NCBI GenBank assembly: GCA_005110385.1 | Contig: DUDT01000002.1 | Location: 27,854-91,853 of the forward strand | DNA from: Candidatus Melainabacteria bacterium | GTDB lineage: Bacteria > Cyanobacteriota > Vampirovibrionia > LMEP-6097 | Length of the DNA stretch: 64,000 bases | Direction: 5' to 3' | Shown here: piece after piece, positions 1,245 to 54,793 of the stretch | Numbering within the stretch: the first letter of the stretch is position 1 | Layout: each line of letters opens with the position of its first letter | Translations under genes and position numbers: made by a program | Notes under the pieces: generated by a model | The model's database searches: none | Told to the model about the DNA's origin: nothing | The model's input: the letters and a program-made list of their open reading frames with translations, nothing else

Positions 1245-4200
1245 TTATTTCTGCAGAACAGCCTGCCTGAGGTTTGCATTATTGGTTTGAGTTGGGACTA
1301 TATTATTAGCAACATCACGACTAGCTTTAACATGATGAATAACCTCTGATGGTTTATGGTATTTATCCCAATGATCTGTAGTATATCTGCCCGCTTGTCT
1401 CAAAGCATTAATAGCACCCATTTCTAAATCAGCATTTGCCTGCATGCCAACACCCAAGAGGTATGGACCTAATGAAGATGAAACTAATAACTGTCCAATA
1501 GGAGTACCCATAAATAAACTTGATGCTGCCATCATTTGGGCACCAATCTTCTGCCACATACCAGCCTCTTTAGGATTGATTTTCACTTGACGCCCAGCTA
1601 CATCAGTAAACATTTCTGGATAACCTTGTGCTTTTTGCTCTACATGCCTTGCTGCAGTCACCATACCGAATGTAGAAGCCAAAGTCTCTACCGAGTTAAG
1701 TACCATTTCTAATGCTTTAGTATTTGGCTTAATACCATGCAAGAAAACTGAAACGGCACTAAGACCTGTTGCGATCATACCAGAGGCAGCATAAGCATGC
1801 CCAACACTAGCTACATTAGTATAATCCATACCACTAGTCTGTGAAGTCTTAGTCACACCAGTATTTTTAAATAAACTTCCAAGGAAACCATGTCTAAAGC
1901 CTTTCACCTTAAGGAACTGAGCTGCCATCTCAGTCCCTTGTTTTAAATCCGCAACAGCAGTAGCGAAAAACTCACCCATAAATGGTTTGAGTTTCTTCAC
2001 CACATCTGCCCTTTTATTAGTAAGGTCAGCTGCAAGTGGTCTTAAATTACCATATTTTTTAAAATCCTCTTTACCAAAAACCTTCTCCTCAACCTCAGAT
2101 TTTGTACCTTTTTTAAAATCATCTAATATGGTATTTTCGCCTTGAATAGCAGCATTTCCTCTGCCTATCTGCAACATGCCATTTGCAAGAGCAAAAAGCA
2201 CCTTACGATTAAAACTAGTAGAAGGGAAGCGTGAAGCAGCGAAGCAAACTAACTCTCCAAGAGTCTGCAAAGGGTAAAGCATCGGTGATCTTAAACCACG
2301 AGCCACCCCAGAGACTAAATTATTAATACCAAAAATATTAGCTTGGACCCTATCCATTTTTTTGAATAAAGCTTCATTACCCGTTAATTTAGCACCAATA
2401 GCCGCAGCTCCAGATCCCATTAGAGCAATACCAACACCCTTAATGCCCGTAGCAAAAATCGGTCTTGAATTCTCCATCGATACAACTTTTTCAATCAATC
2501 CTCCAAGAATTGGAATCTTGCTAGTAATAGGCTTAAGCTTATCTACTAGCAAAGTTATAGGTGGATTATTTAAGCTATTTACGATACCTAACTCTTGCAT
2601 ACCAGCATCTGGTGTTTGTAAAGTTCTAGTTAAAGCAAAATCACGTACATCTTTTATCCAGTGAGCATTTGGATCAAACTTAAATTCACAACCTGGCTTA
2701 TCTTTAACAATCTCAGATATGACATGAGCGGCAAATGCATTATTCAAATGGATATTATCTATTTGAATAATTTGAGAAGCATATTTCTCCTGAAAAGACT
2801 CTGCCCACTGACTTTTAGACTTCACTTCTGCTGGATTAGAAGCTTTTGCGTATTGATTTTTCCCTAAATCAATAAGCTGATCTGGATGACCTGCATTCTT
2901 GGGCTGAGCTAAAAGCTCTACCATCCTATCTGCAATGTCAGCTGGTCCCATAAGACCTCGTACAATTACGGCAAGGCCACCACTTATAACGGCTTGTGCC
3001 TGTGCTGGAGAATCACTACCAGCACTATCCCCTAAATAAAGAGGATGTAAATTTTTCTGCTTCGCTTCAGAATAATTAGGAACTACATCCCCCTTAGAAT
3101 TAGCTGGGGCTATCTCTAAATAAAACTGCCTGTTATCAATTACATTAATTAACGTGTGTTCTTTTTTCGCAGTTGGACGTTGTTTTAAATCTTGAATAAA
3201 CTCCACGAAGCCAGCTTGAGTTGAGAAGCATGTATCCTCAAAGCTCTTTACGTGGCTAATACTTTTATTATTAATTGAAAATAAATCCTCACCGAGAGGA
3301 ATTCCATATTTTTCATTCGCCCATTTTTGAACTTCTGGATGCCTAGTAGCATTTAAAAGTAAGGTATAAAGTTTTCTCTGAACATCTAATCTTTCAACAT
3401 TTTTCCAATCTATCGCATGAGGGGTAAAACAAGCTGGTGAACCATCTCTTAATAATTCCGTTAATTTATGCTCAGCATATGGGTCACTTGGAATAAGGTT
3501 TTCTCTTAACTTCGATGTAAGCGGCAGATTTAACTTATCTAGCTCGTTAATAAAATTTCCAGTAGACCATTTAGCCTGCCTAGATTTTGTAGCTAAATCC
3601 ATATAAGCGATATATTGATTCAAGGTCAAATCAGGCATTAATGAAAAAGCTGCTGGAACTGACTTAATCTCTGCCGTTCGAATCGGTTCACCGTTATTAT
3701 CACGAATCTCTAAGAATTTCTGAAGAAAACCCTTCTCTAAGCCGGGTAGACTTACTTTATTCAAGAATTTCATTAATTCCATGAACCTACTAGTATCTTC
3801 ACTGATTTTTACTGGCTCACCAGGCTTGCTTGTAATGCCACCACTAAGACCATAGATTGCAATATTATTGGCAATAATCTTATCCTTAGGATTAGTTAAC
3901 GAATAAGGTATTTCTGCATTTTGGCCAACTACAGCAGATATTTCCTCTGAACTATTTAAGCCTGGTTCGCCTTCAGCTGTAACCATGCTGAGACCCGCTG
4001 CAATACCTGGCCTAGCAGTTAACATACCTAATTGAGCACCAAGAAAATATAAAGCTTGAGCTAATAATCTTCTATGATGCTTGTCCGGAAGAGAGGATTG
4101 TGAACTAGTACTTGCGACCATGGTCGGATTCTTATAACAAGCAGTACCGTCACCATCACTCCTATAGTCTATCTGTTTGCCATCTGCAAGAGCAGTTAAA

Positions 4201-4622
4201 ACATTAGTCCAGAGACGATGATGTATACCTAAAAGTCTAGTTTTATCAGCACCCTTCGCACCTAAAAGTGCTTCTGCTGGAACCAAGTCAGCAACTTGCT
4301 CTTTAGTTAATTTAAGAAGTTTTTTCGCCCTGTTCTGAATCTCTTCTCGAGATAATGGCTTCGGCATGCTTCCCAGATTAAGATTTCGATCTTGAACATG
4401 AAAACCCGCTTCCAGTTGCGCCTTCTGAGCCCTTAAATCTGGACTGCCAGCCGTCTTAGAATCTTCCAGAGCTGAAAACTTAGCAGCTCCGCTAGCACTA
4501 TTAGGAACAGTAACTTCTGGCAAACGATCTTGACGACCAGCACTAGGCTGTCCGCTCGACTGGCTATTTGGTTGAGGATTTAAATTTCTATTGGGGGGGT
4601 TGTCGGCACTGACAGGAGGCAT
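1245..4622 (-). CDS. Large hypothetical protein (1125 aa) with a Pro/Ser/Gln/Asn-rich N-terminus. Candidate secreted or surface protein.
   Basis: Long uninterrupted ORF. The first ~80 aa are low-complexity and no catalytic motif was recognised. Confidence 0.5.
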   Translation of the reverse strand: MPPVSADNPPNRNLNPQPNSQSSGQPSAGRQDRLPEVTVPNSASGAAKFSALEDSKTAGSPDLRAQKAQLEAGFHVQDRNLNLGSMPKPLSREEIQNRAKKLLKLTKEQVADLVPAEALLGAKGADKTRLLGIHHRLWTNVLTALADGKQIDYRSDGDGTACYKNPTMVASTSSQSSLPDKHHRRLLAQALYFLGAQLGMLTARPGIAAGLSMVTAEGEPGLNSSEEISAVVGQNAEIPYSLTNPKDKIIANNIAIYGLSGGITSKPGEPVKISEDTSRFMELMKFLNKVSLPGLEKGFLQKFLEIRDNNGEPIRTAEIKSVPAAFSLMPDLTLNQYIAYMDLATKSRQAKWSTGNFINELDKLNLPLTSKLRENLIPSDPYAEHKLTELLRDGSPACFTPHAIDWKNVERLDVQRKLYTLLLNATRHPEVQKWANEKYGIPLGEDLFSINNKSISHVKSFEDTCFSTQAGFVEFIQDLKQRPTAKKEHTLINVIDNRQFYLEIAPANSKGDVVPNYSEAKQKNLHPLYLGDSAGSDSPAQAQAVISGGLAVIVRGLMGPADIADRMVELLAQPKNAGHPDQLIDLGKNQYAKASNPAEVKSKSQWAESFQEKYASQIIQIDNIHLNNAFAAHVISEIVKDKPGCEFKFDPNAHWIKDVRDFALTRTLQTPDAGMQELGIVNSLNNPPITLLVDKLKPITSKIPILGGLIEKVVSMENSRPIFATGIKGVGIALMGSGAAAIGAKLTGNEALFKKMDRVQANIFGINNLVSGVARGLRSPMLYPLQTLGELVCFAASRFPSTSFNRKVLFALANGMLQIGRGNAAIQGENTILDDFKKGTKSEVEEKVFGKEDFKKYGNLRPLAADLTNKRADVVKKLKPFMGEFFATAVADLKQGTEMAAQFLKVKGFRHGFLGSLFKNTGVTKTSQTSGMDYTNVASVGHAYAASGMIATGLSAVSVFLHGIKPNTKALEMVLNSVETLASTFGMVTAARHVEQKAQGYPEMFTDVAGRQVKINPKEAGMWQKIGAQMMAASSLFMGTPIGQLLVSSSLGPYLLGVGMQANADLEMGAINALRQAGRYTTDHWDKYHKPSEVIHHVKASRDVANNIVPTQTNNANLRQAVLQK

Positions 4623-6463: not shown

Positions 6464-7735
6464 GTGAGCTTAACTAATAATCCAAAAGAGTTCTTTCGGT
6501 GGCTAGAAACAGCCACTGAAGGAACTCTTTTTACTTTTATTTCCGAATGGCACACGAAAGGCGAGAGCAGTGAAGAACTAATTAAGTTTATAGAATTTCT
6601 TCGAGAAAAGGCGCCACCATTAAGCCTCAGGGATTTAGTTTACGACGAAAACGCAGGAATTGGAGTTTCGCTACACGCCCATCTTGCCTATGACTGTGCT
6701 GGTACCGGCGGCGATAAATCTCATAGCTTTAATATTTCTACCGGCACGGCCTTTCTTGCTGCTTACGCAGGCTTACCTGTAATTAAAAATGGCGGTCGCT
6801 CTGCTAGTAGTAAAGTAGGTTCAGTAGATGTACTTTATGAGCTAGGTTTAGATTTAGACATTAGTGAGGAAAGAAAACTAGAAGCCTTTCGAAAAGTAGG
6901 TTTAAGTTTTTTTTCTAGTAAAGTGTCTAGTGAATATCTACTGCCCGTAAAAAATTTAGCGAGGAAATATAAAGAATCCTGCTTTATAAATTTAATCGCT
7001 CCATTTCTCTCACCAATTGAGCTTCAGGGGCAGATCATTGGTATCGCTCAAGCTCGTTGGGTTCCAGTAATTAAAGAAATAGCTCAATACTTTATAAAAC
7101 AGGGCTACCGCCAAAAGTTTATCCTAGTACACTCAAACCAAGAGTTTTTAGAAAATTCTCTTAAAGAGCTAAGTGAGGGAAATACAGAGATTAGAGATTC
7201 CGAGCAGTCTCCTAACAGTACTAAGGCTGAGCTTATAAGTTCAATCTTAGATGAGTTTAATACAGCCCTGCCTTCTAAAATTATTTTCATTTCTTATAAT
7301 CCGCATTTTGACTTGTCTACAGAAAATGTACCTGTGAATAACTCTCCAACAGTAAACCTAAACGCTCAGCAAGCATATTATGAACAGGAATTTATACTCA
7401 ACCCAGCGAGCAAATCATTTTCAGAACTGGCATTAACAGCTGCAAAGCTTAAAGACCTAGAAGGCGGGAATACAAAAGAGAATGCTCAGATATTACTCAA
7501 AATCTTTAAAGGAGAGGCTCAAGACCCCAGATTAAGGATTAAAGCTGAGACTCTCGCCCTAAATACAGCCTTAATGCTTATGCTAAAAGAAGACTTTAGT
7601 CTTTTTTACGATGAAAGGAGCTTATTAAAAGAACTTACAGAGAATTACATAAAATTAAAAAAATTTCTTAAGACTCAGAATTTATATGAATTCCTAGAAG
7701 AATTACGCAAGTATTTCACAAAAGAAAAATTATGA
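6464..7735 (+). CDS. Anthranilate phosphoribosyltransferase-like (glycosyltransferase family 3) protein. It has a GTG start and carries an in-frame repeat insertion.
   Basis: 'CAGTGGD' and 'IKNGGRSASSKVGSVDVLYELG' match the TrpD GTGGDG and KHGNR..SS.SGSADVLEALG motifs. The insertion 'DENAGIGVSLHAH' lies immediately before GTGGD. Confidence 0.55.
   Translation: MSLTNNPKEFFRWLETATEGTLFTFISEWHTKGESSEELIKFIEFLREKAPPLSLRDLVYDENAGIGVSLHAHLAYDCAGTGGDKSHSFNISTGTAFLAAYAGLPVIKNGGRSASSKVGSVDVLYELGLDLDISEERKLEAFRKVGLSFFSSKVSSEYLLPVKNLARKYKESCFINLIAPFLSPIELQGQIIGIAQARWVPVIKEIAQYFIKQGYRQKFILVHSNQEFLENSLKELSEGNTEIRDSEQSPNSTKAELISSILDEFNTALPSKIIFISYNPHFDLSTENVPVNNSPTVNLNAQQAYYEQEFILNPASKSFSELALTAAKLKDLEGGNTKENAQILLKIFKGEAQDPRLRIKAETLALNTALMLMLKEDFSLFYDERSLLKELTENYIKLKKFLKTQNLYEFLEELRKYFTKEKL
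6641..6690 (+). repeat. Dispersed in-frame repeat element copy (core GACGAAAACGCAGGAATTGGAGTTTCGCTACACGCCCAT)
   Basis: Differs by about 2 mismatches from the copy at 9356-9410. Confidence 0.8.
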
Positions 7736-8704: not shown

Positions 8705-9688
8705 ATGTCTTTAGAGACTATTATCAAAAAGTATGGAGCGGAAAATATATCTTTCGCTTTACTGAAAAGGACTGACAGCGAAAACGCAGAGACTGAAGTT
8801 GTACAAGGCTCCCTAGAATTCGAAAATATACTTGAACATAACCTAGACAGCTACTTTCATCCAGCTAGTCTTTTAAAATTATTCATAAGCCTGATGGCAA
8901 GTGAGCTTTTGCTACAAAATAATCAGCCAGAAGTCAAAGAAACTGACTATGAAAAAAATGAATTAAGCAGAGCTATTCAGGAAAGTATCTCTGCATCAGA
9001 TAACGATGCTCTCGCTTTCCTTATCGATTATTTAGCATCTTATCCTTGGGATTATAATCTCATTAATACAGGAAATACCCTAAAATTCACTCCAAATCAG
9101 CAATCCCAAGATGTTTTAAATAAAATACTTAATAGCCGCCTTGAAATTAATAAATTCTTTTTAGAAAAAGGTTTTTCCGAAAAAATAAACCTCGTAAATA
9201 AATGCTTTGGCTTTGATTACTACGGCAAAGAGAAACAGATCTATGAAGCTCTAGACCAGAATCAGATCAATAATCGAGATCTAATAAAACTGTTAATCCT
9301 TATAGAAAAGGACTTTCCCCTTATTTTGAATTCCATGAAACGGACACTTAAAAATAATGAGGATGACGAAAACGCAGAAATTGGAGTTCCGCTACACGCC
9401 CATATTCCTAGTGGCATAATCAATACTGAAGATTATCAAGCTCAAGCCTTCTCAGGAAAAGTGCTTGCTGAGGAATTTAAAGTAAAAAGCATTTATTCTA
9501 AAGCTGGCTGGAATTCTAAAGTTAGGCATGACGCTGTGCTATTTAGCATAAACAAGGATGATGAAAACACAGAAAATGGCGCTGTGCAGCAGTCTCAGTA
9601 TATTTTAACTGTACTAACTAAGAACCTCAGTCATGACGAAGAGATTTTACAAGAAATCGCACGAGAAGTAATCTTGACCTTAAATTAG
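8705..9688 (+). CDS. Serine beta-lactamase-like (class A-like fold) hypothetical protein carrying three in-frame repeat-element copies
   Basis: 'HPASLLK' (SxxK), 'SASDNDA' (SDN) and 'KAGW..VRHDAVLF' (KTG-like) motifs. Repeat peptides 'DSENAETEV', 'DDENAEIGVPLHAH' and 'DDENTENGAVQQ' are also present. Confidence 0.35.
   Translation: MSLETIIKKYGAENISFALLKRTDSENAETEVVQGSLEFENILEHNLDSYFHPASLLKLFISLMASELLLQNNQPEVKETDYEKNELSRAIQESISASDNDALAFLIDYLASYPWDYNLINTGNTLKFTPNQQSQDVLNKILNSRLEINKFFLEKGFSEKINLVNKCFGFDYYGKEKQIYEALDQNQINNRDLIKLLILIEKDFPLILNSMKRTLKNNEDDENAEIGVPLHAHIPSGIINTEDYQAQAFSGKVLAEEFKVKSIYSKAGWNSKVRHDAVLFSINKDDENTENGAVQQSQYILTVLTKNLSHDEEILQEIAREVILTLN
8771..8813 (+). repeat. Degenerate copy of the dispersed repeat (GACAGCGAAAACGCAGAGACTGAAGTTGTACAAGG)
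   Basis: Matches the 54735-54790 variant (GACAGCGACGAAAACGCAGAAA...GTTGTGCAGCGG). Confidence 0.6.
9356..9410 (+). repeat. Dispersed in-frame repeat element copy (AATGAGGATGACGAAAACGCAGAAATTGGAGTTCCGCTACACGCCCATATTCCTA)
   Basis: Best-conserved copy. It shares its 5' 'AATGAGGAT' with the copy at 22001. Confidence 0.85.
9554..9598 (+). repeat. Variant copy of the dispersed repeat (AAGGATGATGAAAACACAGAAAATGGCGCTGTGCAGCAGTC)
   Basis: Matches GAAAACGCAGAAAATGGAGTTGTGCAGCGGTC at 54755-54790. Confidence 0.7.
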
Positions 9689-16336: not shown

Positions 16337-17476
16337 ATGGATATAAAAAGAGAAGTACAAATAGATAAACTTCTAAAAAAAGGCAAAGCCTTACTAATCT
16401 ATGGTGCAAGGCAGGTTGGAAAAACTACTTTAGTTAAAAACTTTCTTCTCAAGAATAAATCTAAATTCAGGCAGCGTACTGGAGAAGACATTCAGCTACA
16501 GATTTTATTTAAAGACCTTTCAATAACTGACTTAGACGAGTTTGTGGAAAATTTAGAAATTCTCATTATAGATGAGGCTCAAATTCTAGAGAATCTCGGC
16601 AGAGGAATTAAATTAATTTTAGATAGAAACCCAAAGCTAGCAATAATATTAACAGGTTCATCTTCATTTGAATTAGCAAATCAGCTCAGTGAGGCACTAA
16701 CTGGTAGGAAAAAAACTCAATCCCTCTTACCTCTTAGTATTAAAGAACTCTCTGAGCATTATGGTCGATATGAAATTAAACATAAACTAGAAGAATTATT
16801 ACTCTATGGCTCATACCCCGAAGTCATTACGACTGAAAATAAACATGAGAAGCGAGAACTGATCCTTGAGATAGCTAATAGCTATTTATTTAAAGATATT
16901 CTGAGTTTTTTAAATCTAAAAAAAGCTGATGTCCTTTATAAATTAACGAAATTACTTGCTTATCAAATCAGCTCAGAAGTGAATGTTAATGAGCTTGCGA
17001 GTAACTTACAAGTCGATAATAAAACTATTACTCATTACCTAGATATATTAGAAAAATCCTTTGTTATAAAAATGATTCCAGCCTTCAATAGTAATCAGAG
17101 AAACGAAATCAAAAAATCTAAAAAGATATATTTCTTAGATCTCGGTATTAGAAATGCTTTAATAAACCAGTTTCAAGACATAGAGTTACGAAATGACAAA
17201 GGAGCATTATGGGAGAATTTCGTTTTTCTGGAACTCTATAAGCGAATCGAATACGACAGAAGTTTTAAAACTATCTATTTTTGGCGAACCCATGAACAGC
17301 AGGAAATAGATTTTATCCTAGAAGCAGATGGTTTACTAGAACTCTATGAAGCTAAGTTTAATGCTAAAAAAAGCGCGAAGATCCCGCCGCAGTGGCTAAA
17401 ACATTATCCAGAATTTCAAGAATTAAAGCTGATTCATACTGGGAATTTTATGGATTATTTTACTAATACAGATTAG
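16337..17476 (+). CDS. AAA+ ATPase, COG1373/DUF4143 family (paralog 1)
   Basis: 'LLIYGARQVGKTTL' P-loop, 'ILIIDEAQ' Walker B and a C-terminal DUF4143-like region ('YFWRTHEQQEIDFIL'). Confidence 0.75.
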   Translation: MDIKREVQIDKLLKKGKALLIYGARQVGKTTLVKNFLLKNKSKFRQRTGEDIQLQILFKDLSITDLDEFVENLEILIIDEAQILENLGRGIKLILDRNPKLAIILTGSSSFELANQLSEALTGRKKTQSLLPLSIKELSEHYGRYEIKHKLEELLLYGSYPEVITTENKHEKRELILEIANSYLFKDILSFLNLKKADVLYKLTKLLAYQISSEVNVNELASNLQVDNKTITHYLDILEKSFVIKMIPAFNSNQRNEIKKSKKIYFLDLGIRNALINQFQDIELRNDKGALWENFVFLELYKRIEYDRSFKTIYFWRTHEQQEIDFILEADGLLELYEAKFNAKKSAKIPPQWLKHYPEFQELKLIHTGNFMDYFTNTD

Positions 17477-18731: not shown

Positions 18732-19853
18732 TTATAAATACAACCCCTCTAAAAACTCTTTTGCAACACAGACCTTAACCCCAGACTCGATTCTAGATTT
18801 ACCCATATTTTTCACGATCTGAAAAGCCTTATAACCATAATGCTCTTTAAAATTTAAAAGACTTTTAGAAATATTTTTATCACTTAATTTCGCTTCTAAA
18901 ATATACTCTAGCTCACCTTTATTAGCCACCGCGAAATCGACTTCCAGCCCATCTTTCGTCCTAAGATAATGTAATTCTTTTTCTTCTGCAAGATAATCAT
19001 TCTCAGCATAAATACTTTTAAGTAAGCTCAAAGCCACAAGATTTTCAAAAGCCGCTCCCTCACTGTGACTTACTAGAGCAGTGTCAAAAAAATAAATCTT
19101 TGGTTCTTTTAAAATACTTCTTGCAATATTTTTAGAATAAGGGGTCACCCTGAAAATAATGTATAGAGCTTCTAATATCTCAATATACTTTTTAACTGTA
19201 TTCGATGAAATTTTTAAATCTTCTGCAAGTGAATTAAATGAAATACTAGAACCAACTCGCAGCCTTAACATATCAAAAAGCAGCCTCATAGCTTTGATAT
19301 TCTGAATCGGCTCTAAATCAAATACATCAGTAGTAAGTAAACCATTAACATATTGCTGCCTCCACCTGCTTGCTTCTAAATCATCATCCGCTAGAAAGGG
19401 TTCAGGGAAACCACTTCTAAGCATTAACTGACCTAAAGAGACGGTCTCATTTATCTTCCTAAACTCCGCTAAGGAAAAAGGCATTAACCTATGCCTAAAA
19501 TACCTACCAGCTAGTGAGTCACCTAACTTATCGAAGACCTCTAACCTTGCACTACCAGTAACCAATATGCGTGTCCCACTTTCTTTAGTATCGAAAACAC
19601 CTTTAATAAAATTTTTCCATTCTGGTTTTTTATGCAGCTCATCAAAAATAATCAAATCTAAATCCCTGTCCCAGATTTGCTTATCAATTATTTCCTTATC
19701 TTCTAAAGAATCGTAATTTAAATAAAGCGAATTGCTATAGGCTTTAGCAATTTTCTTAGCTAGCCATGTTTTACCAGACTGTCTTGGACCTACCAAAAAT
19801 ACCATTTTTTTCTCCAAGTCTTTTTTAATAGGATCTAGCTGAAAGCGTTTCAT
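18732..19853 (-). CDS. AAA+ ATPase, COG1373/DUF4143 family (paralog 2)
   Basis: 'MVFLVGPRQSGKTWLAK' and 'LIIFDELHK', with a DUF4143-like C-terminus. Confidence 0.75.
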   Translation of the reverse strand: MKRFQLDPIKKDLEKKMVFLVGPRQSGKTWLAKKIAKAYSNSLYLNYDSLEDKEIIDKQIWDRDLDLIIFDELHKKPEWKNFIKGVFDTKESGTRILVTGSARLEVFDKLGDSLAGRYFRHRLMPFSLAEFRKINETVSLGQLMLRSGFPEPFLADDDLEASRWRQQYVNGLLTTDVFDLEPIQNIKAMRLLFDMLRLRVGSSISFNSLAEDLKISSNTVKKYIEILEALYIIFRVTPYSKNIARSILKEPKIYFFDTALVSHSEGAAFENLVALSLLKSIYAENDYLAEEKELHYLRTKDGLEVDFAVANKGELEYILEAKLSDKNISKSLLNFKEHYGYKAFQIVKNMGKSRIESGVKVCVAKEFLEGLYL

Positions 19854-21508: not shown

Positions 21509-22798
21509 ATGTTCCCTAGAGAATTCTGGATCACAAAAATACAAAAAGCTTGGAGACTGAGGTCTATCATCTGGCTAGTCGGCGTAAGGCGTATAGGTAA
21601 AACCACCTTAGTAAAGTCATTATCTGAGGGTGATAAGGCGGGTAAAAACGCAAAAAATGGAATTGCGCATGGGTCTCTTCTGTATTATGACTGTGAGTTA
21701 AAAAGAAACCGTGATCTTATTGAAAGCGATGTAGAAGAATTTTGGCAGGGAAAAGAAAATAAGATCGTAATCCTAGACGAGATTCATCGTTTAGAAAATC
21801 CTTCTGAAGTCCTGAAAATAGCTGCTGATCATTATTCTAATGTTAAGGTGATAGCTACGGGCTCATCTACTCTAGCTGCTAGTAAAAAATTTAAAGACAC
21901 TCTAAGTGGACGAAAAATCGTCATAGAGCTAAGACCATTAATAGAAGCTGATCTTCTTGCTTTTGCTCAGAATAAAAATCCCAAAATAATAGAACCTATA
22001 AATGAGGATAACGAAAACGCAGAAATTGGAGTTCGGCAACAGTGCCATAATACACTTTTAGAAAAACGCTTTCTCTACGGTGGCATGCCCGAGAATTATC
22101 TCAGTGACGAACTGCCTGAATACGCCTTTGAAGAATGGATTGACTCTTACTGGTCTAAAGATATTCAAGAACTTTATGAGCTGCGTAGTAAATTTGCTTT
22201 TCAGAAATTTATGGAATTGCTCTTTATACAGAGTGGCGGAATCTTTGAAGCTAGTAAATTTGCCACTGACTGTAAAGTTAGTAGTCCGACTATTAGTAAT
22301 TTTTTACACGTACTAGAAGAAACCTTTGTTATAGATGTTCTTCGTCCTTATCATAAACGAAAAAATTCTGAAATCGTTTCAGCACCTAAGGTTTATGCTT
22401 TTGACACTGGGCTTGCTTGTTATTTAAAAGGCTGGTCATCACTCAGGAACGAGGATTTAGGTATATTCTGGGAACACTTCGTTTTAAATGAACTAAAAGC
22501 TCAGCTCCAAAACAATGCAGACATACTATACTGGCGAAACAAAAAAAAGCAAGAAGTCGACTTTATAATTAAGAAAAAACGCTCACAGACTGTTATAGCT
22601 ATAGAAACTAAATGGCAAGCTAAAAATTTCAGCCCAGACAATCTACAAGCTTTTCGTGAACTACATCCAGAAGGAGAGAATTTTCTTATCGCCAATGATA
22701 TCCAAGAATCATATACAAAAAACTATACTGACCTGAAAGTAAAATTCATTAGTTTAAGAGAATTTATCTTGCAGATTACTCTTGGCACAGCTCCTTGA
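21509..22798 (+). CDS. AAA+ ATPase, COG1373/DUF4143 family (paralog 3), carrying an in-frame repeat-element insertion
   Basis: 'WLVGVRRIGKTTLVK' and 'IVILDEIHR'. The inserted peptide is 'NEDNENAEIGVRQQCHN'. Confidence 0.75.
   Translation: MFPREFWITKIQKAWRLRSIIWLVGVRRIGKTTLVKSLSEGDKAGKNAKNGIAHGSLLYYDCELKRNRDLIESDVEEFWQGKENKIVILDEIHRLENPSEVLKIAADHYSNVKVIATGSSTLAASKKFKDTLSGRKIVIELRPLIEADLLAFAQNKNPKIIEPINEDNENAEIGVRQQCHNTLLEKRFLYGGMPENYLSDELPEYAFEEWIDSYWSKDIQELYELRSKFAFQKFMELLFIQSGGIFEASKFATDCKVSSPTISNFLHVLEETFVIDVLRPYHKRKNSEIVSAPKVYAFDTGLACYLKGWSSLRNEDLGIFWEHFVLNELKAQLQNNADILYWRNKKKQEVDFIIKKKRSQTVIAIETKWQAKNFSPDNLQAFRELHPEGENFLIANDIQESYTKNYTDLKVKFISLREFILQITLGTAP
22001..22051 (+). repeat. Dispersed in-frame repeat element copy (AATGAGGATAACGAAAACGCAGAAATTGGAGTTCGGCAACAGTGCCATAAT)
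   Basis: Shares 'AATGAGGAT.ACGAAAACGCAGAAATTGGAGTT' with 9356-9410, and 'EIGV.(Q/E)QC' with the guaA copy. Confidence 0.8.
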
Positions 22799-22973: not shown

Positions 22974-24278
22974 ATGGTCTTCAAAGTCAACGATATCAAA
23001 GAATTATTAGTATTGCAGATGAAGAGATTCTGCTCAGCAGAACTAAACGTCATCAGAGAAGATGCATTAAAACTAGTAGAAAAACACGTGAAAGCCCCTC
23101 AAGCAGTGGTTATTAGTGGCTTAAGAAGAGCTGGAAAATCTACATTTCTGCATCAAATCGCTCATAAATACTATGAAAAAAATGCTTACTACTATATTAA
23201 TTTTGATGATGATAGATTTTCAGACTTCACAGCTAGTGACTTTAACGCATTACTTGAAATTCTAATCGAACTATTTTCAGAAAGAAAAGTAATCTTTTTC
23301 GACGAAATCCAAAACATTGATAAGTGGGAAACCTTCTGTAGAAGGCTTATAGATAATGGTTTTAAACTTTACATCACTGGATCTAACGCTTCATTACTGA
23401 GTAAAGAGCTTGGTACTAGGCTTACAGGGCGTTATTTTCCATTAGAGCTTTTTCCTTTTAGCTTCGAGGAGTTTTTACGTTATCGAAAAATCGATATTAA
23501 AGAGATAATGAAAGAGAGCCGAAACGTTTTAGACACTAAGACACGAGCCTTATTAAAAAACAAGCTTAAAGAATATATTTTAAAAGGCTCTATCCCAGAG
23601 GCTTTAAGATATCCAGAGCTACCTGTATTAAAAAGCCTCTACCGAGATATTCTCTACCGAGATATAGCTACACGTTACAGAATAGAAGCTGATAGAACCC
23701 TGCGTGAGCTTTCTCTGCGAGTTTTCACTGATATTACTAGCCCTATACAGTTTTCTAAAATTAAACAGCAGCTCGGCATCGGTAATGTAACTACTGTCAC
23801 TAATTACATTTCATATTTAGAAAACTCTTGGTTAATTTTTGCTATAAATATCTTCGATATTTCGATTAAAAGGCAGCAAATCGCCCCTAAAAAAATCTAC
23901 GCCATAGATACAGGTCTAATACATGAGATAACTTTTAAATTTAAAGAAAAACAGGGAGTCCTATTAGAGAATCTAGTTTTTTTACATCTACGTAAAAAAT
24001 ATCAAGAGGTTTTTTACTATAAAACTAAATCTAACTATGAAGTAGATTTTTTCATTCCCGAAGCAGCTTTGCTAGTGCAGGTTTCTTACGACATTTCAGA
24101 TTTAGAAACCAAGGAAAGAGAAATTAGATCACTTATAGAAGCTAAATCTGAATTAGAGATGGATAAAAAATTTAAAATTAAAAAACTCCTAATAATAAAC
24201 TTCGAGCTTAAAGATCAGGAAAAAATCCAAAAAAATACTATAGAAATTATTCCAGCTTACGAGTTTTTACTTTCTTGA
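22974..24278 (+). CDS. AAA+ ATPase, COG1373/DUF4143 family (paralog 4)
   Basis: 'VVISGLRRAGKSTFL' and 'VIFFDEIQN', with a DUF4143-like C-terminus. Confidence 0.75.
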   Translation: MVFKVNDIKELLVLQMKRFCSAELNVIREDALKLVEKHVKAPQAVVISGLRRAGKSTFLHQIAHKYYEKNAYYYINFDDDRFSDFTASDFNALLEILIELFSERKVIFFDEIQNIDKWETFCRRLIDNGFKLYITGSNASLLSKELGTRLTGRYFPLELFPFSFEEFLRYRKIDIKEIMKESRNVLDTKTRALLKNKLKEYILKGSIPEALRYPELPVLKSLYRDILYRDIATRYRIEADRTLRELSLRVFTDITSPIQFSKIKQQLGIGNVTTVTNYISYLENSWLIFAINIFDISIKRQQIAPKKIYAIDTGLIHEITFKFKEKQGVLLENLVFLHLRKKYQEVFYYKTKSNYEVDFFIPEAALLVQVSYDISDLETKEREIRSLIEAKSELEMDKKFKIKKLLIINFELKDQEKIQKNTIEIIPAYEFLLS

Positions 24279-27626: not shown

Positions 27627-28673
27627 ATGACGACTACAACTACTACGGAGAACTCAATTAAAGTGAATGAAATTAGTAAACTCGATGAGACTAGTAAAAT
27701 CAGTGAGATGGCTAAAAGCAATCAAAGAAGCATGCTAACGCCAAGAGATCATTACAAGCCCTTTGAATATCCTCAGTTTTTTGAATATTTTAAATTACAG
27801 CAGCAGGCACACTGGCTACCAACAGAAGTTCCCATGGCTGATGACTTAGTCGACTTTAAAACTAAACTTACTCCCCAAGAATCTAATTTAATTATCCAAG
27901 TACTTAGATTTTTTACTCAAGGAGATATAGAGGTACAGAATAACTATAATAGTCATCTAATACCAGTCTTCCCTAAACCTGAAATAGCTATGATGCTTAC
28001 AGCTTTTGCTTCTATGGAAACAGTGCATGTGTGGGCCTACTCTCATTTAAACGATACGCTAGGCTTGCCAGAAGTAGAATACAGCGCCTTCCGTGAATAT
28101 GAAGCGATGAAGAATAAATATGAATATCTTCAAAACTTTAAAACGGAAAATAAATACGAGATAGCTAAAAACTTAGCTGTATTTGGTGGATTTATGGAAG
28201 GAATAGCATTATTTGCGAGCTTCGCTATCCTTATGAATTTCCCAAGACGTGGGTTATTGAAGAATGTTGGACAGATCATTACTTGGTCTATTCGTGATGA
28301 ATCTCTGCATTCAGAAGGTGTCTGTGCTTTATTTAGACAGTTCATTAAAGAAAATCCTGATATCTGGACTCCTGAATTTAAAGATGAAATTTATAAAGCC
28401 TGCGATGAAATGATTCGCTTAGAGAATAATTTCGTCGATACCTGCTTTACTTTAGGATCAGTCGAAGGCTTACAGCCAGAGGATGTTAAGAAGTATTTAA
28501 AATATATAGCGAATAAAAGACTCTCAGACCTAGGACTAGAAGGACTTTATGATATTAAAGAAAATCCTCTACCTTGGATGAACCTTATGGTTAACGGAAA
28601 AGAACACGCTAATTTCTTTGAAACCCGCGCGACTGACTACGCTAAGGGCGTAATCGTTGATGACTGGGAATAG
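27627..28673 (+). CDS. nrdB: Ribonucleoside-diphosphate reductase beta (R2) subunit, class I. No nrdA is adjacent.
   Basis: Di-iron ligand pairs 'SMETVHVWAYSH' and 'SIRDESLHSEG', plus an R2-type C-terminus 'ETRATDYAKG..DDWE'. Confidence 0.8.
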   Translation: MTTTTTTENSIKVNEISKLDETSKISEMAKSNQRSMLTPRDHYKPFEYPQFFEYFKLQQQAHWLPTEVPMADDLVDFKTKLTPQESNLIIQVLRFFTQGDIEVQNNYNSHLIPVFPKPEIAMMLTAFASMETVHVWAYSHLNDTLGLPEVEYSAFREYEAMKNKYEYLQNFKTENKYEIAKNLAVFGGFMEGIALFASFAILMNFPRRGLLKNVGQIITWSIRDESLHSEGVCALFRQFIKENPDIWTPEFKDEIYKACDEMIRLENNFVDTCFTLGSVEGLQPEDVKKYLKYIANKRLSDLGLEGLYDIKENPLPWMNLMVNGKEHANFFETRATDYAKGVIVDDWE

Positions 28674-28710
28674 CCGCCTACTAATTGCCACGCTGGCCAA
28701 ACGTGCAAGT

Positions 28711-29562
28711 TCAAGGCTTTGGCAACAGAGTGCTAACAGCTAGACTCTTTTTCCTAGCTAAGACTCCCCCGTTACGACGATTTAGTTTAGGTCCTTCAAA
28801 CAGCTCACAGCCAGCCTTGCTGAAACTATCTTTGGCTATACGTGCTGAACTGTAGGTAGAGATATAAGCTTTAGGCTTAGCTTTACTAACTACAGCTGCG
28901 ATAAATTCTTCTGTCCATAATACTGGACAGGTTTTAGGACTAAAGGGATCAAAAAAAATCGCATCAAAATAGTCATCTTCGATCTCAGTAACTGCATTTC
29001 GAGCATCATTTATTAAAATCCTCATATTAAGATTTTCTGTAAGTAAATTTAACTCACCGATGGTAGACGGCTGTAATACTTCACTTTCTACTTTTTCGTC
29101 ATCCTGATGTACAGCGCCACGACCAGAAGCAACTAATAATTTCTTTGCTTGCTCTGCAAGCGGCTTCATAATTGAGTCTCTAATAAATAGATAATCCTCA
29201 GGTACTTCTATATTCGGCAGTTCTGCGATAATCGCCGCATCATTTTCTAAACCTATTATCTCTATTCTCTGAGCTGGATTAATTTCCCATATTTTTTGAA
29301 TAGCGACGCCTGAATTATAAGCAAGACCGAAGCAGACATCTAGAATTCTTATTACTGGAAAACTTAAAATTGCAGGTTCCACAGAGGTCTCCGCAAGGGA
29401 AGAATTCGCAAGCTCATCTAATTTACAAGCCAGCACATGCTTATATAAGGCTTCCGTGTATGCCCCTATACTAGAGTGATAAGTCTCATTATATTCAAGA
29501 TTTTTATAAGTAGAACTACCATCTAGAGTAGTTTCCCTCACGAAAGGAGAATTAATATCCAT
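28711..29562 (-). CDS. MnmC/DUF752-type SAM-dependent methyltransferase (tRNA mnm5s2U methyltransferase-like)
   Basis: The 'AIFFDPFSPKTCPVLWTEEF' motif is characteristic of the MnmC methyltransferase domain. Confidence 0.5.
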   Translation of the reverse strand: MDINSPFVRETTLDGSSTYKNLEYNETYHSSIGAYTEALYKHVLACKLDELANSSLAETSVEPAILSFPVIRILDVCFGLAYNSGVAIQKIWEINPAQRIEIIGLENDAAIIAELPNIEVPEDYLFIRDSIMKPLAEQAKKLLVASGRGAVHQDDEKVESEVLQPSTIGELNLLTENLNMRILINDARNAVTEIEDDYFDAIFFDPFSPKTCPVLWTEEFIAAVVSKAKPKAYISTYSSARIAKDSFSKAGCELFEGPKLNRRNGGVLARKKSLAVSTLLPKP

Positions 29563-29563
29563 C

Positions 29564-29980
29564 TTAAAGCGGGTTTATAACTGAATCGCCTGTTATAAAA
29601 TAAAGAACTATATTACTAAAAGCAGTTATCAGAACGACTATTATAGTAAGAGCCGTGGCGAGCATTCTTAGTTTCGTGGTATTTAAAATCTTCTCCACGA
29701 AAAGTAAACTAATAGAATGCAAAATCCTTGATATACAGAGCAATCCAGCAAGAACATTAAAATAAATCATGTTCGGCTCCTGCATTTCAAGAAGAATTAA
29801 AAGAATTAAAGGGAGTGGAACATATTCAGAAAAATTAGCATGTGCTTTAACAGCGTAAGCTAAATTTTTACTTTCAGGTCCCTGAACCTTCCCCTTAATA
29901 CCCATGCGCACTCTAATAACTTGAGAGACGAGAAAAATATACCAGAAACCAAGGAGGGCGGCGTATACCGTAATAACCAT
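29564..29980 (-). CDS. Small 4-TM membrane protein, possibly MAPEG-like
   Basis: 138 aa with four hydrophobic helices. 'RAHANFSEYVPLPL' resembles the MAPEG loop. Confidence 0.3.
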   Translation of the reverse strand: MVITVYAALLGFWYIFLVSQVIRVRMGIKGKVQGPESKNLAYAVKAHANFSEYVPLPLILLILLEMQEPNMIYFNVLAGLLCISRILHSISLLFVEKILNTTKLRMLATALTIIVVLITAFSNIVLYFITGDSVINPL

Positions 29981-30003
29981 GCTTGCATTTTAACATGAGG
30001 GGG

Positions 30004-30160
30004 ACTGCTCGCAAACTTCAATTTCTGCGTTTTCGTCGTCCTCATGATCCTCATGTACCTTGAGTACACTGCGGTCATTCGTCCTCCTCAGCCTTGAACT
30101 TGTACGTTTGCAAGCAGCCCACGTGAATTGCTCGCAAACTTCAATTTCTGCACCACTCTC
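30004..30160 (-). repeat. Long intergenic copy of the dispersed repeat. It is palindromic and flanked by a direct duplication of GCAGAAATTGAAGTTTGCGAGCA.
   Basis: On the minus strand it reads ...GAGGACGACGAAAACGCAGAAATTGAAGTTTGCGAGCAG.... It contains an internal hairpin, GTTTGCGAGCA-N12-TGCTTGCAAAC. Confidence 0.75.
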
Positions 30161-42989: not shown

Positions 42990-43027
42990 AGATACTGAGT
43001 ATAGCAAAAAATATTTACTGAGGCTTT

Positions 43028-43062
43028 TGGACAAATCAAGGATTATATCCCTGATTTGTCCA
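43028..43062. promoter_or_regulatory. Near-perfect 15-bp inverted repeat, TTGGACAAATCAAGG-N8-CCCTGATTTGTCCAA, between the divergent ndk and ATPase paralog 5
   Basis: Read directly: 'tttggacaaatcaaggattatatccctgatttgtccaaaa'. Confidence 0.5.
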
Positions 43063-43083
43063 AAACTGTGGTATAAGATTAAC

Positions 43084-45589: not shown

Positions 45590-47308
45590 CTACTCCCACT
45601 CTATAGTCGCTGGTGGCTTACTGGTTATGTCATAGACCACTCTATTGACGCCATCTACTTCATTAATAATGCGATTACTAATTTTCGCTAAAAGTTCATA
45701 AGGCATTCTTGCCCAATCTGCGGTCATAGCATCTTCACTGGTAACGGCTCTTAAGACTATCGGATGTGCGTAAGTTCTTTTATCACCCATCACACCGACG
45801 GATTTAACTGGTAAAACCGCTGTAAATATCTGCCAAACAAAATCATAGGCATTAGCTTTTATTAACTCTTCACGCACTATAAAATCTGAATCAGCGACCA
45901 TCTTAAGTTTATCTTCAGTAAGTTCACCTAGAACTCTTATAGCTAAACCTGGTCCAGGAAAAGGATGTCTGCGTACGATATATTCTGGGACGCCTAAAGC
46001 TTTAGCTAACTCTCTAACCTCATCTTTAAAGAGAGTCTTTAAAGGCTCTATGAGAGTGAATTTCAGGTCATCAGGCAAACCACCTACATTGTGGTGTGAC
46101 TTAATACTTGCAGCCACTCTTTTACCAGTTTTACTGTCTATGCGAACCCCTGAAGATTCTATTAAGTCAGAATAGAGAGTACCCTGTGCTAAAAATTTTA
46201 TTTCCATTTCACTGCACTGCTTATGCATAACAAGCTCTGCTTTTTCGCTATCACTACTAATAGATGCAGCTGAAAGAGCAAGGGTTGGGGCTTTCAATTT
46301 CGTAACTTCTTCCTGAAAAGTATAGATAAACTCTCTACCAATAATTTTCCGCTTCTGCTCAGGATCAGAAACACCAGCTAAAGCATTCATAAATTTTTCT
46401 TTAGCATTTATATACAATATCTGAATGCCAAAATCCTGCTTAAAGCTCTGCATTAGCTCCTCTGGCTCATTTTTACGCATAAAACCATGATCGATAAACA
46501 TGCAGATTAACTGATCGCCTACAGCTTCTTTCAGAAGAAAAGCCAGCGTAGAACTATCTACACCACCTGAAAGAGCCAGTAAGACTTTCTGTTCCCCCAC
46601 TGTATTTCTAATACTCTCTATTTGATCATTTATAAAAGACTGCATATCCCAGTCCTGAGAACATTTACAGATATTTAAAATAAAATTACTGATAATCTCA
46701 GTCCCGAATTCACTATGAGTAACCTCTGGGTGGAACTGTACTCCATAAAGCTTTCTAGCCGTATCTTCAAAAGCTGCTATCGCTGTATTGGCTGTTCTAG
46801 CAGAAATTTTAAAATGGCACTGCTCTGAGACATAATCACAGTGGCTCATCCACACAGAAATAGCTACTTCATCGCACTGCTCATGAACTCCAATTTCTAC
46901 GTTTTCGTCGTCCTCATACTTAATGCCATAAAACAATGAATTTTTATCGCCTTGAAAGCCAGTATTAATAAACAACTCAGCCTTACCATATTCTCTTGTA
47001 TCACTGCGCAGAACTTTAGCACCAAAATGATCTGCTAGAAGCTGCATCCCGTAACAGATTCCTAAAATAGGCACTGGTAAATCTAAAATAACTAAATCAC
47101 AGAGCAAAGCTTCTGAATCATAAATACTATTAGGACCACCCGAAAGAATAATCCCTTTTAAAATACCAGCCTCATAATCTTTCTTGATAAACTCAAATGA
47201 ATAATCAAAAGGTTTAACTTCACTATAAACTCGCAGCTGCCTTATTCGCTTAGCGATTAGCTCTGTATATTGAGACCCAAAGTCTAGAATAAGAATTTTT
47301 TCTTGCAT
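45590..47308 (-). CDS. guaA: GMP synthase (glutamine-hydrolysing), with a repeat-element insertion in the GATase domain
   Basis: GATase '[11 protein letters not shown]', PP-loop 'LSGGVDSST' and the C-terminal 'KPPATIEWE'. Inserted peptide '[17 protein letters not shown]'. Confidence 0.9.
46871..46917 (-). repeat. Dispersed in-frame repeat element copy inside guaA (minus strand: ATGAGGACGACGAAAACGTAGAAATTGGAGTTCATGAGCAGTGCGAT)
   Basis: Same orientation as the host gene. Shares 'ATGAGGA.GACGAAAACG.AGAAATTGGAGTT' with the other copies. Confidence 0.8.
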
Positions 47309-54734: not shown

Positions 54735-54790
54735 ACAGCGACGAAAACGCAGAAAGACGAAAACGCAGAAAATGGAGTTGTGCAGCGGTC
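54735..54790 (+). repeat. Intergenic copy of the dispersed repeat with an internal tandem duplication (GACGAAAACGCAGAAA x2), then ...AATGGAGTTGTGCAGCGGTC
   Basis: 'gacagcgacgaaaacgcagaaagacgaaaacgcagaaaatggagttgtgcagcggtc'. It overlaps the last codon of the permease gene. Confidence 0.75.
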
Positions 54791-54793
54791 TTA

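What the first reader, a model, noticed from the sequence alone, without database searches (positions are those of the whole stretch)
9356..9410. Family of short dispersed repeat elements inserted in-frame into unrelated protein-coding genes (RPE-like selfish DNA)
The element has the consensus (A)ATGAGGAYGACGAAAACGCAGAAAWTGGAGTT plus a variable 3' part such as CCGCTACACGCCCAT. At least nine copies occur in this 64-kb window. They are at 6641, 8771, 9356, 9554, 22001, 46871 (minus strand), 54735 and 30004 (intergenic), with a possible degenerate copy at 21636. Every genic copy is read in the same frame and the same orientation relative to its host gene. Each adds a 'D(D/S)ENAE(I/T)GV...' peptide to proteins as different as a TrpD-like enzyme, a beta-lactamase-like protein, a DUF4143 ATPase and GuaA. 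This mirrors the Rickettsia palindromic elements (RPEs), which colonise ORFs. The rest of the gene content (korAB, GH1 beta-glucosidase, pilT, hipBST-like operon) is not Rickettsia-like. This may therefore be an independent or undescribed ORF-invading repeat family.
Basis: seen in the sequence. Interest (0 to 1): 0.85.

Follow-up and report, generated by a model that had tools for sequence, protein, structure and literature searches.

The report
Translatable mini-transposon colonising genes in-frame
The repeat is the worn-down tail of a 121-base mobile DNA element that has inserted hundreds of times, almost always in one readable frame, into ordinary protein genes of non-photosynthetic relatives of cyanobacteria; this is a second clear case of the behaviour known from Rickettsia.

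Summary
The roughly 45-nt repeat at 9356-9410 is the 3' end of a 121-bp element. That element has complementary 16-nt terminal arms, a conserved core and a 5-bp target-site duplication (121+5 = 126 nt = 42 codons). One full copy lies at window 30001-30121(-).

The family occurs only in five Vampirovibrionia/Caenarcaniphilales MAGs and in lake-type metagenome contigs. I found 455 copies at about 210 sites in 1.4 Mb. Of 86 sites inside long ORFs, 83 are read in the same sense frame (…HEDHEDDENAEIGV…). A reverse frame is also open, and intergenic copies show no orientation bias, so the genic bias reflects selection on the translated peptide.

Orthologue comparisons of GuaA and of the beta-lactamase-like host show sites that are absent, short, short plus full, or tandem among close relatives. 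More distant orthologues lack the inserts. Four clean empty sites each carry a single copy of the 5-mer.

No transposase partner, Rfam match or literature record was found. Three features remain unexplained:
- the arms vary between copies but stay complementary;
- 45% of full copies abut a resident 3' fragment;
- 3' remnants greatly outnumber 5' remnants.

Verdict: a new coding-MITE family, RPE-like in behaviour.

The parts
9354..9402 (+). The focal copy. It is a 3' remnant (profile positions 73-121) of the 121-nt element, read as NEDDENAEIGVPLHAH inside the beta-lactamase-like ORF 8705-9688. It is followed by the AT-rich 5-mer ATATT (9403-9407).
   Evidence: Orthologues show this site as absent (P0147), short, or short plus full (P0141).
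30001..30121 (-). Full-length 121-nt element, intergenic between the CNNM (30159-31493) and MAPEG (29564-29980) genes. It has a 5' arm, a conserved core with a central hairpin, and a 3' arm.
   Evidence: (E=3.7e-36)
30128..30151 (-). 3' fragment (GCAGAAATTGAAGTTTGCGAGCA) lying directly upstream of the full copy, the recurrent 'short plus full' arrangement. It is absent in L029.
6642..6681 (+). 3' remnant in the TrpD-like (Glycos_transf_3) ORF 6464-7735, read as DENAGIGVSLHAH. The orthologue in L100 keeps 21 nt more of the element's 5' side.
7181..7246 (+). Degenerate copy (NTEIRDSEQSP…) in the same ORF. It is a 66-nt in-frame indel, present here and in L100 and absent in L066.
8774..8813 (+). 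Degenerate 3' remnant (SENAETEVVQGSL) in ORF 8705-9688. The 36 nt at 8780-8815 are absent in L062, and L066 carries a longer variant.
9555..9596 (+). 3' remnant (DDENTENGAVQQS) in ORF 8705-9688. Its arm differs from the orthologous copies in L062 and L066 at clustered positions, although the flanks are identical.
21621..21677 (+). Weak, degenerate copy (GKNAKNGIAHGS) in the AAA_14/DUF4143 ORF 21509-22798.
   Evidence: E=0.01
22002..22047 (+). 3' remnant (NEDNENAEIGVRQQCH) in the AAA_14/DUF4143 ORF.
28671..28733 (+). 63-nt two-armed mini form with an internal deletion, at the stop codon of the ribonucleotide reductase small-chain gene. It is absent in L029.
   Evidence: (weak)
29066..29109 (-). 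Weak 3' remnant inside the methyltransferase ORF 28711-29562.
   Evidence: (E=0.0067)
46874..46917 (-). 3' remnant in GuaA ([17 protein letters not shown], residues about 129-146), here called site 1.
46205..46288 (-). GuaA site 3: a degenerate 27-aa insert (…[16 protein letters not shown]…). It is present in some close relatives and absent in others.
46814..46822 (-). GuaA site 2: a 'QCH' scar at a position where relatives P0039 and P0041 carry element copies.
54735..54792 (+). Intergenic 3' remnant with a 16-nt internal duplication, between the convergent ABC permease and aminotransferase genes.

Best explanation
The repeat belongs to a family of non-autonomous mobile DNA elements of the miniature inverted-repeat type.

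Anatomy. The standard unit is 121 bp. It consists of a 16-nt 5' arm, a highly conserved core with a 6-bp central hairpin, and a 16-nt 3' arm complementary to the 5' arm. Insertion duplicates 5 bp of AT-rich target (consensus A-W-R-A-W), so each insertion adds 126 nt, or 42 codons. A 202-bp variant carries an 81-nt branched insert in the central hairpin and adds 207 nt, or 69 codons.

Why genic copies share one frame. The element is open in one sense frame (G-R/T-V-A-E-R-T-S-S-R-L-R-R-T-N-D-R-S-V-L-R-V-H-E-D-H-E-D-D-E-N-A-E-I-G-V-…). Insertions that land in a gene in that frame and orientation become an extra, probably disordered, loop and survive. Other insertions are purged.

After insertion. 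Copies are reshaped in place by tandem gain, by recombination between adjacent repeats, by internal deletion and by sequence exchange with other copies. What usually remains is a 12-20-codon 3' remnant, (E)DDENAEIGV plus the arm. The feature at 9356-9410 is such a remnant.

Shown here: the element's structure, the target duplication, empty sites, the frame bias, the lack of orientation bias outside genes, and presence/absence among orthologues. Inferred: mobilisation in trans by an unidentified enzyme that makes a 5-bp staggered cut, translation of the inserts, and deletion as the origin of the short forms.
For: - Structure and copy number: 74 full copies align end to end. The profile search finds 298 copies in the genome loci and 214 in the metagenome loci. 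146 of 159 distinct full copies are exactly 121 nt.
- Target duplication: 32 perfect and 67 with at least 4 of 5 matches among 159 copies, against 3-4 in offset controls.
- Empty sites with a single 5-mer: L043/L166 TAGAA, L053/L164 CTAAA, L038/L178 CTTAG, L058/L195 ATGTA.
- Frame: 152/155, 101/106 and 83/86 sites in frame +0. Of 70 distinct full copies, 60 are open in +0 and 53 in one reverse frame. In ORFs the sense:antisense counts are 44:2 for full copies and 84:1 for 3' partial copies. Intergenic full copies between co-directional genes are 6 sense and 9 antisense.
- Orthologues: GuaA lengths range from 548 to 634 aa at 81% or higher BLASTP identity (91% or higher over aligned columns, A1), with variation at three sites. 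Relatives at 74-78% identity have no inserts. The beta-lactamase-like host shows absent, short and short-plus-full states at the focal site and at least four other insertion sites. DNA indels of 36, 66, 63 and 26 nt coincide with element copies.
- Loop location: the AF2 model of GuaA has only one segment with pLDDT below 50 in its N-terminal 340 residues, and it is the insert at 132-145.
- Arms and hairpin: 14 of 15 arm pairs and 2 of 6 hairpin pairs covary, 96% of cells are paired, and 0 of 500 shuffles reach the observed values.
Against: - No autonomous partner or transposase was found in the window or in about 1.4 Mb of related loci.
- The outer 12 nt of the arms vary between copies while staying complementary. 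That is not expected if a protein reads the arm sequence.
- 3' remnants outnumber 5' remnants about 9:1, even among copies not used for ascertainment. Simple random deletion does not predict this.
- 45% of full copies abut a resident 3' fragment at a fixed 18-nt spacing, and they often share its rare variants. Plain random insertion does not predict this either.
- Translation of the inserts has not been shown.
- All sequences are MAG or metagenome assemblies.
Confidence: 0.78

Rival explanations
1. A retro-mobile, SINE-like element. A structured RNA is reverse-transcribed at the target starting from its 3' end, which would give copies with a constant 3' end and variable 5' truncation. Copies longer than one unit would arise from multimeric or circular templates.
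For: - 3'-anchored partial copies dominate, 71 against 8 among bystander copies.
- The 'partial plus full' arrangement is polar: 69 upstream 3' fragments against 3 downstream 5' fragments. Neighbours share rare variants.
- The fold is stable, and helices covary.
Against: - No target duplication flanks the 5'-truncated copies: 4 of 110, against 9 and 4 in controls.
- Full copies have a fixed 5-bp duplication and terminal inverted repeats, typical of DNA transposition.
- G.U and A.C wobble cells in the terminal helix are about equal (about 33 against 25), so there is no strand-specific RNA signature.
- Orthologous copies differ stepwise in 5' extent (L100 against the window at 6629).
- No reverse transcriptase was seen.
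Confidence: 0.07
2. A host-functional module rather than selfish DNA. The element would be a structured RNA motif acting within mRNAs, for example in processing, stability or localisation. Alternatively, the acidic peptide would be a shared functional tag recruited into many proteins.
For: - The core is far more conserved than the arms.
- Structure is preserved by covariation.
- Sense-strand restriction within genes is near absolute.
- Remnants that can no longer transpose stay close to the family consensus.
Against: - Intergenic copies are antisense to neighbouring genes as often as sense, 9 against 6.
- Inserts are gained and lost among close relatives in housekeeping enzymes, with no conserved position.
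- Inserts decay to heterogeneous remnants.
- There is no Rfam match, even at E up to 10.
- The target duplication and empty sites indicate transposition.
Confidence: 0.08
3. An ancient shared protein motif or domain present in the host proteins, not an insertion.
For: The same peptide frame is seen in all genic copies.
Against: - Unrelated hosts share nucleotide-level identity, including at synonymous positions.
- More distant orthologues lack the segments.
- The same sequence occurs intergenically in both orientations.
- Empty sites exist.
Confidence: 0.01

Closest known systems
Rickettsia palindromic elements (RPE), described in Ogata et al. 2000 Science 290:347 and summarised in PMC2229807 and PMC10969869
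   Same: Both are palindromic repeats of about 100-150 bp with terminal inverted repeats and a contiguous open frame. In both, roughly half the copies are fused in-frame into unrelated genes, often housekeeping ones, and the rest are intergenic. No transposase is known for either. In both cases the inserts are thought to form tolerated surface loops.
   Different: - The host phylum is unrelated: Vampirovibrionia, GC about 37%, in lake-type metagenomes.
- A 5-bp target duplication and empty sites are demonstrated here. For RPE the duplication is listed as '?' in PMC2229807, Table 1.
- Here the arms vary between copies in a compensatory way.
- There are frequent head-to-tail 'fragment plus full' arrangements and tandem arrays inside ORFs.
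- Most genic copies are 3' remnants.
- Sequence homology to RPE was not testable.
Other bacterial MITEs with open frames found intragenically: ERIC/IRU, the 107-bp Correia element and YPAL (PMC2229807)
   Same: These are small TIR elements that produce target duplications, fold into a long stem-loop, and are occasionally fused in-frame to host ORFs.
   Different: Those families are mainly intergenic, and most have TA termini or TA duplications. Here about 40-50% of sites are genic, frame fidelity is 97%, the duplication is 5 bp (AWRAW), and the termini are GG…CC.
REPINs/REP elements mobilised by RAYT transposases (Bertels & Rainey 2011; cited from my own knowledge)
   Same: The two inverted arms keep complementarity through correlated changes. 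That implies a hairpin in single-stranded nucleic acid matters for persistence.
   Different: REPINs are extragenic, produce no target duplication, and are linked to a single-copy RAYT gene. No arms-only palindromes and no RAYT-like multicopy gene were seen here.
Head-to-tail IS dimers or circle junctions of copy-out-paste-in insertion sequences (IS30, IS911, IS256 types), and Tn3-derived miniature elements with 5-bp AT-rich duplications (from my own knowledge)
   Same: The 3' end of one copy abuts the 5' end of the next across a spacer equal to the duplication length (5 nt). Insertion occurs next to resident ends. The duplication is 5 bp and AT-rich, and the termini start with GG(G).
   Different: No cognate transposase or matching IS ends were found. 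This is a resemblance only, and none of these families was tested for membership.

Membership tests
MITE (miniature inverted-repeat transposable element) | Small size (under about 300 bp) with no coding capacity for a transposase | tested here: met
   Units are 121 nt, with variants of 202 nt and about 76-85 nt.
MITE (miniature inverted-repeat transposable element) | Terminal inverted repeats | tested here: met
   The 16-nt arms are 94% paired across 70 copies. Imperfect similarity extends to about 26 nt.
MITE (miniature inverted-repeat transposable element) | Target-site duplication of fixed length | tested here: met
   The duplication is 5 bp. 67 of 159 copies match at 4 or more of 5 positions, against 3-4 in controls. 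Four empty sites carry one copy of the 5-mer.
MITE (miniature inverted-repeat transposable element) | Many dispersed copies with presence/absence polymorphism between relatives | tested here: met
   455 copies at about 210 sites in 1.4 Mb. Polymorphisms are shown.
MITE (miniature inverted-repeat transposable element) | A cognate autonomous element with the same ends | tested here: not met
   No element longer than 260 nt lies between matched arms. No multicopy ORF was found, and no transposase in the window. Only about 1.4 Mb was sampled, so absence from whole genomes is not established.
Rickettsia palindromic elements (RPE) | Sequence homology to one of the RPE families, and occurrence in Rickettsia | not testable with these tools
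The hosts here are Vampirovibrionia MAGs, so family membership is unlikely.
Rickettsia palindromic elements (RPE) | In-frame fusion of a conserved element-encoded peptide into unrelated host ORFs | tested here: met
   This is a likeness in behaviour, not membership.
REP/REPIN | Extragenic location, no target duplication, and an associated RAYT gene | tested here: not met
   About 40-50% of sites are genic. A 5-bp duplication is present. No arms-only palindromes were found.
Any described RNA family (Rfam 15), including self-cleaving ribozymes | A match to a covariance model | tested here: not met
   No hit at gathering score in the window. The only hit at E up to 10 is a chance snoRNA match on the standard form, with none on the long form.
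Non-LTR/TPRT-type retroelement (SINE-like) | 5'-truncated copies flanked by target duplications | tested here: not met
   4 of 110 truncated copies have the downstream 5-mer at their 5' junction, against 9 and 4 in controls.

The most novel reading that the evidence does not exclude
The element may be a new kind of hairpin-defined coding transposon. Its ends would be specified by complementarity rather than by sequence. An unknown structure-specific enzyme would move it and would preferentially integrate it against the 3' end of resident copies, building in-frame tandem arrays. If so, it would act as a lineage-wide generator of loop-length variation in essential enzymes across an order of bacteria.
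Probability: 0.2. Interest if true: 0.8.

Novelty: new member of a known kind. Interest (0 to 1): 0.62.

Why it matters
In-frame colonisation of protein genes by selfish DNA at high frequency has essentially one textbook example, the Rickettsia RPEs, and their mobility mechanism remains unknown. This family offers an independent case in a free-living, uncultured lineage that is sister to the photosynthetic cyanobacteria.

It has much cleaner transposition signatures than RPE: a fixed 5-bp duplication, empty sites, and full, long, short and remnant forms. It also provides many polymorphic sites in housekeeping enzymes such as GuaA, a TrpD-like protein and a beta-lactamase-fold protein.

Three questions become directly testable:
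- how compact genomes tolerate such insertions;
- how the insertions decay;
- whether they fuel protein loop evolution.

There is also a practical consequence. The inserts lengthen ORFs and push domain hits below annotation thresholds. The focal host loses its Pfam call, while insert-free homologues keep it.

Tried and rejected
- **Core inserted into pre-existing REP-like palindromes, to explain the variable complementary arms.** Rejected. No arms-only palindromes exist in the sample, and the duplications lie outside the arms.
- **Short forms as TPRT-like 5'-truncated insertions.** Not supported. There is no duplication at the truncated junction.
- **Short forms made by slippage between the left target duplication (ATGAT-like) and the internal CATGAGGA repeats.** The arithmetic fits (deletions of 72 or 81 nt). 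However, short forms are not enriched for ATGA/ATAA flanks (17% against 13%, p=0.44), and their 5' ends are spread over profile positions 66-87.
- **Known RNA families or ribozymes.** No Rfam match. A hammerhead-like CUGANGA…GAAA reading by eye lacks a stem II.
- **Integron attC-like sites.** The AAC/GTT motifs sit at the inner end of the stem, not the outer end. I rejected this by inspection.
- **Search for an autonomous partner.** I looked at 5' ends followed by matched 3' arms within 5 kb, multicopy ORFs within genomes and Pfam hits for window ORFs. Nothing was found.
- **Phage vector.** The single 'viral' contig hit (L106) is 85-90% collinear with a chromosomal MAG contig (L069) and carries only large ORFs. 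It is probably not a phage.
- **Protein-level profile to find more degenerate copies in the window.** It added little beyond the DNA profile.
- **Literature.** Neither the sequence strings nor Melainabacteria/Caenarcaniphilales repeat elements appear in the held library.

Full report
**1. Observation**

Its 17-nt core occurs ten times, against 0.54 expected. All listed coordinates are recovered. Every genic copy lies on the sense strand of its host ORF and reads D(D/S)ENAE(I/T)GV….

The hosts are:
- a Glycos_transf_3 (TrpD-like) protein;
- an ORF with a sub-threshold Beta-lactamase2 match, whose insert-free homologues carry PF13354;
- an AAA_14/DUF4143 ATPase;
- GuaA.

The copy at 54735-54792 lies just after a stop codon and is intergenic.

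**2. The repeat is the tail of a larger element**

BLAST of related loci against the window showed that the intergenic copy at 30001-30121(-) is full length. Seventy-four full copies align end to end. Each consists of:
- a 16-nt 5' arm;
- a conserved core, GAACAAGTTCAAGGCTGAGGAGGACGAATGACCGCA, then a 6-bp hairpin, then TGAGGATCATGAGGACGACGAAAACGCAGAAATTGGA;
- a 16-nt 3' arm complementary to the 5' arm.

146 of 159 distinct full copies are exactly 121 nt. A 202-nt variant carries an 81-nt branched insert in the hairpin loop. It folds at -81 kcal/mol with z = -6.7 and is open in the same frame. Two-armed forms of about 76-85 nt arise by deletion between GGACGAA repeats.

**3. Where it occurs**

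The exact 21-mer in the genome collection hits more than 105 stretches. All are in five MAGs labelled Vampirovibrionia, Caenarcaniphilales or Cyanobacteria; one is mislabelled Proteobacteria. Three of them are about 91% identical to the window over syntenic stretches. A 24-mer from the 5' core hits more than 117 metagenome contigs.

The one 'viral' contig is collinear with a chromosomal MAG contig. No Rfam family matches. No paper in the library contains the sequence or describes repeats in this lineage.

**4. Evidence that it is mobile DNA**

The 5 nt either side of full copies are identical in 32 of 159 copies. They match at 4 or more of 5 positions in 67 of 159, against 3-4 in offset controls. 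The consensus is A-W-R-A-W.

Four orthologous empty sites carry a single copy of the 5-mer. A fifth empty site shows an insertion abutting a resident short copy that has a different arm type.

Window-versus-relative alignments show in-frame indels of 36, 66, 63 and 26 nt that coincide with element copies.

**5. In-frame colonisation**

121+5 = 126 nt gives 42 codons, and 202+5 = 207 nt gives 69 codons.

Counts of copies in the one sense frame, among copies inside open frames of at least 150 codons:
- 152 of 155 in genome loci;
- 101 of 106 in the independent metagenome set;
- 83 of 86 after collapsing orthologous and adjacent copies into sites.

Stop codons alone do not explain this. Of 70 distinct full copies, 60 are open in that frame and 53 are open in one reverse frame. 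For the 3' 48 nt, four frames are usually open.

Insertion orientation does not explain it either. Intergenic full copies between co-directional genes are 6 sense and 9 antisense. The bias therefore reflects selection on the translated product. The sense peptide is charged and hydrophilic, whereas the reverse one (…[31 protein letters not shown]…) is hydrophobic and basic.

As a rough inference, about half of full copies being genic is close to what a gene-dense genome would give if most insertions in the right frame and orientation were tolerated. I did not measure coding density.

**6. Orthologue tests**

*GuaA.* Relatives at 81% or higher BLASTP identity (91% or higher over aligned columns, A1) range from 548 to 634 aa. 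Relatives at 74-78% identity are 528-559 aa and have no inserts.
- Site 1 carries one short copy, two short copies, short plus full, or two short plus full in different relatives.
- Site 2 carries copies in P0039 and P0041 and only a 'QCH' scar in the window.
- Site 3 is present in one group of relatives and absent in another.

*The host of the focal copy*. The site is a short variable loop in distant orthologues. It reads EDDENAEIGVPLHAH in the window and its close relatives. It is deleted in P0147. In P0141 it is short plus full (…EDYENAEVCTERQSDVGRVAERTSSRLRRTNDRSVLPVHEDHEDDENAEIGVPLHAH…). At least four other sites in this roughly 300-aa protein carry copies in one relative or another.

*Structure.* In an AF2 model of the window's GuaA, the only low-confidence stretch in the first 340 residues is the insert at 132-145. 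Site 3 (341-368) is also low, although the C-terminal half is poorly modelled overall.

**7. Structure and covariation**

In 70 distinct full copies, 14 of 15 terminal-helix pairs and 2 of 6 hairpin pairs show double changes. 96% of cells pair, no shuffle in 500 reaches the observed values, and slid controls pair at only 24-55%.

The core is about 95% conserved, while the outer 12 nt of the arms fall into several types that always match their partner, including chimeric types. G.U and A.C wobble cells are about equally frequent, so nothing points to a strand-specific RNA. The pairing could act in single-stranded DNA, or it could simply reflect a requirement for identical ends.

This is the least conventional feature, because protein-read terminal repeats are normally the conserved part of a MITE.

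**8. Origin of the short forms**

3' remnants outnumber 5' remnants about 9:1, even among copies not used to fetch the loci. They carry no duplication at their 5' junction, which argues against truncation during insertion.

Orthologous copies differ stepwise in how much of the 5' side is left, as in L100 against the window at 6629. Short-only states can be derived from short-plus-full states by recombination between the direct repeats, as in GuaA P0010 against P0029. A specific slippage model was tested and not supported.

I therefore favour in-place deletion and recombination. The polarity remains unexplained.

**9. An unexpected arrangement**

69 of 155 full copies are preceded by a 3' fragment. 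The distance from GGAGTT to the element start is 18 nt (13 nt of arm plus 5) in 34 cases, and otherwise mostly differs from 18 by multiples of three. Only 3 full copies have a downstream 5' fragment.

In 19 cases the neighbour's arm matches 8 of 8 positions, against 2 expected, and neighbours share rare core variants. In many other cases the arms differ, and one such case has an empty-site control (L082 against L041).

Two processes therefore seem to operate. New copies insert preferentially against the 3' end of resident copies. Local duplication or gene conversion also occurs.

Clustered differences within otherwise identical orthologous DNA at 9555-9596 also point to sequence exchange between copies. 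So do the different arms of the orthologous full copies at 30001-30121 and in L029.

**10. Comparison and verdict**

In behaviour this matches the Rickettsia palindromic elements and, more loosely, the ERIC, Correia-107 and YPAL intragenic fusions (PMC2229807, PMC10969869).

It meets the structural definition of a MITE except that no autonomous partner was found in about 1.4 Mb. It is not a REPIN, not a known RNA family, and shows no retroelement signature.

I file it as a new family of a known kind, a coding MITE, with three unexplained features that could indicate an unusual mobilisation mechanism:
- compensatory variable arms;
- end-adjacent insertion;
- 3'-polar remnants.

Noticed in passing
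L001:833-1034(-); also L056, L017, L022, L018, L102, L006, L041, L026, L042: A 202-nt long form of the element has an 81-nt insert replacing the central hairpin loop. The insert forms two extra hairpins (MFE -81 kcal/mol, z = -6.7). It stays open in the same frame and is found inside long ORFs.
   Followed up: partly
window 30128-30151 plus 30001-30121; L008, L024, L072, L080, L099, L192 and others: 45% of full copies sit exactly one arm plus 5 nt downstream of a 5'-truncated copy, and often share its rare variants. Tandem arrays of 2-4 units occur (L072, L024, L099), including inside GuaA.
   Followed up: partly
window 9555-9596 against L062/L066; window 30001-30121 against L029:4365-4485: Orthologous copies in otherwise near-identical DNA differ at clustered positions in the arm, switching between arm types. 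This suggests gene conversion between dispersed copies or re-insertion at the same site.
   Followed up: partly
window 16337-17476(+), 18732-19853(-), 21509-22798(+), 22974-24278(+), 43027-44280(+): Five AAA_14/DUF4143 ATPase paralogues lie in 64 kb. The 16-25 kb stretch differs from the L087 relative by indels of 200-1238 nt, so it is a variable region.
   Followed up: no
window 37800-42011(-): A 1403-aa ORF combines DUF4011, an SF1 helicase (AAA_11/AAA_12) and a C-terminal REase_MTES_1575 nuclease domain. The architecture looks defence-like.
   Followed up: no
window about 9678 (end of ORF 8705-9688) against L062 and L066: Relatives carry an extra 50 nt here containing a perfect hairpin (GATGAAAAAC…GTTTTTCATC). 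It changes the C-terminus (…TSLPESP). This may be a different small insertion or a terminator.
   Followed up: no
window 8705-9688(+): The element inserts push this beta-lactamase-fold protein below the Pfam threshold (17 bits against a cut-off of 22), while insert-free homologues are annotated PF13354. Such inserts can therefore hide domain annotations.
   Followed up: partly
L106 (IMGVR_UViG_3300042866_002883): This contig is filed as viral, but it is 85-90% collinear with the chromosomal MAG contig L069. It carries only very large ORFs and several element copies, so it is probably misclassified.
   Followed up: partly
window 50595-52943(-) and 1245-4622(-): One ORF of 782 aa has a flagellin N-terminal region plus an FG-GAP repeat. 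Another ORF of 1125 aa has no Pfam match.
   Followed up: no
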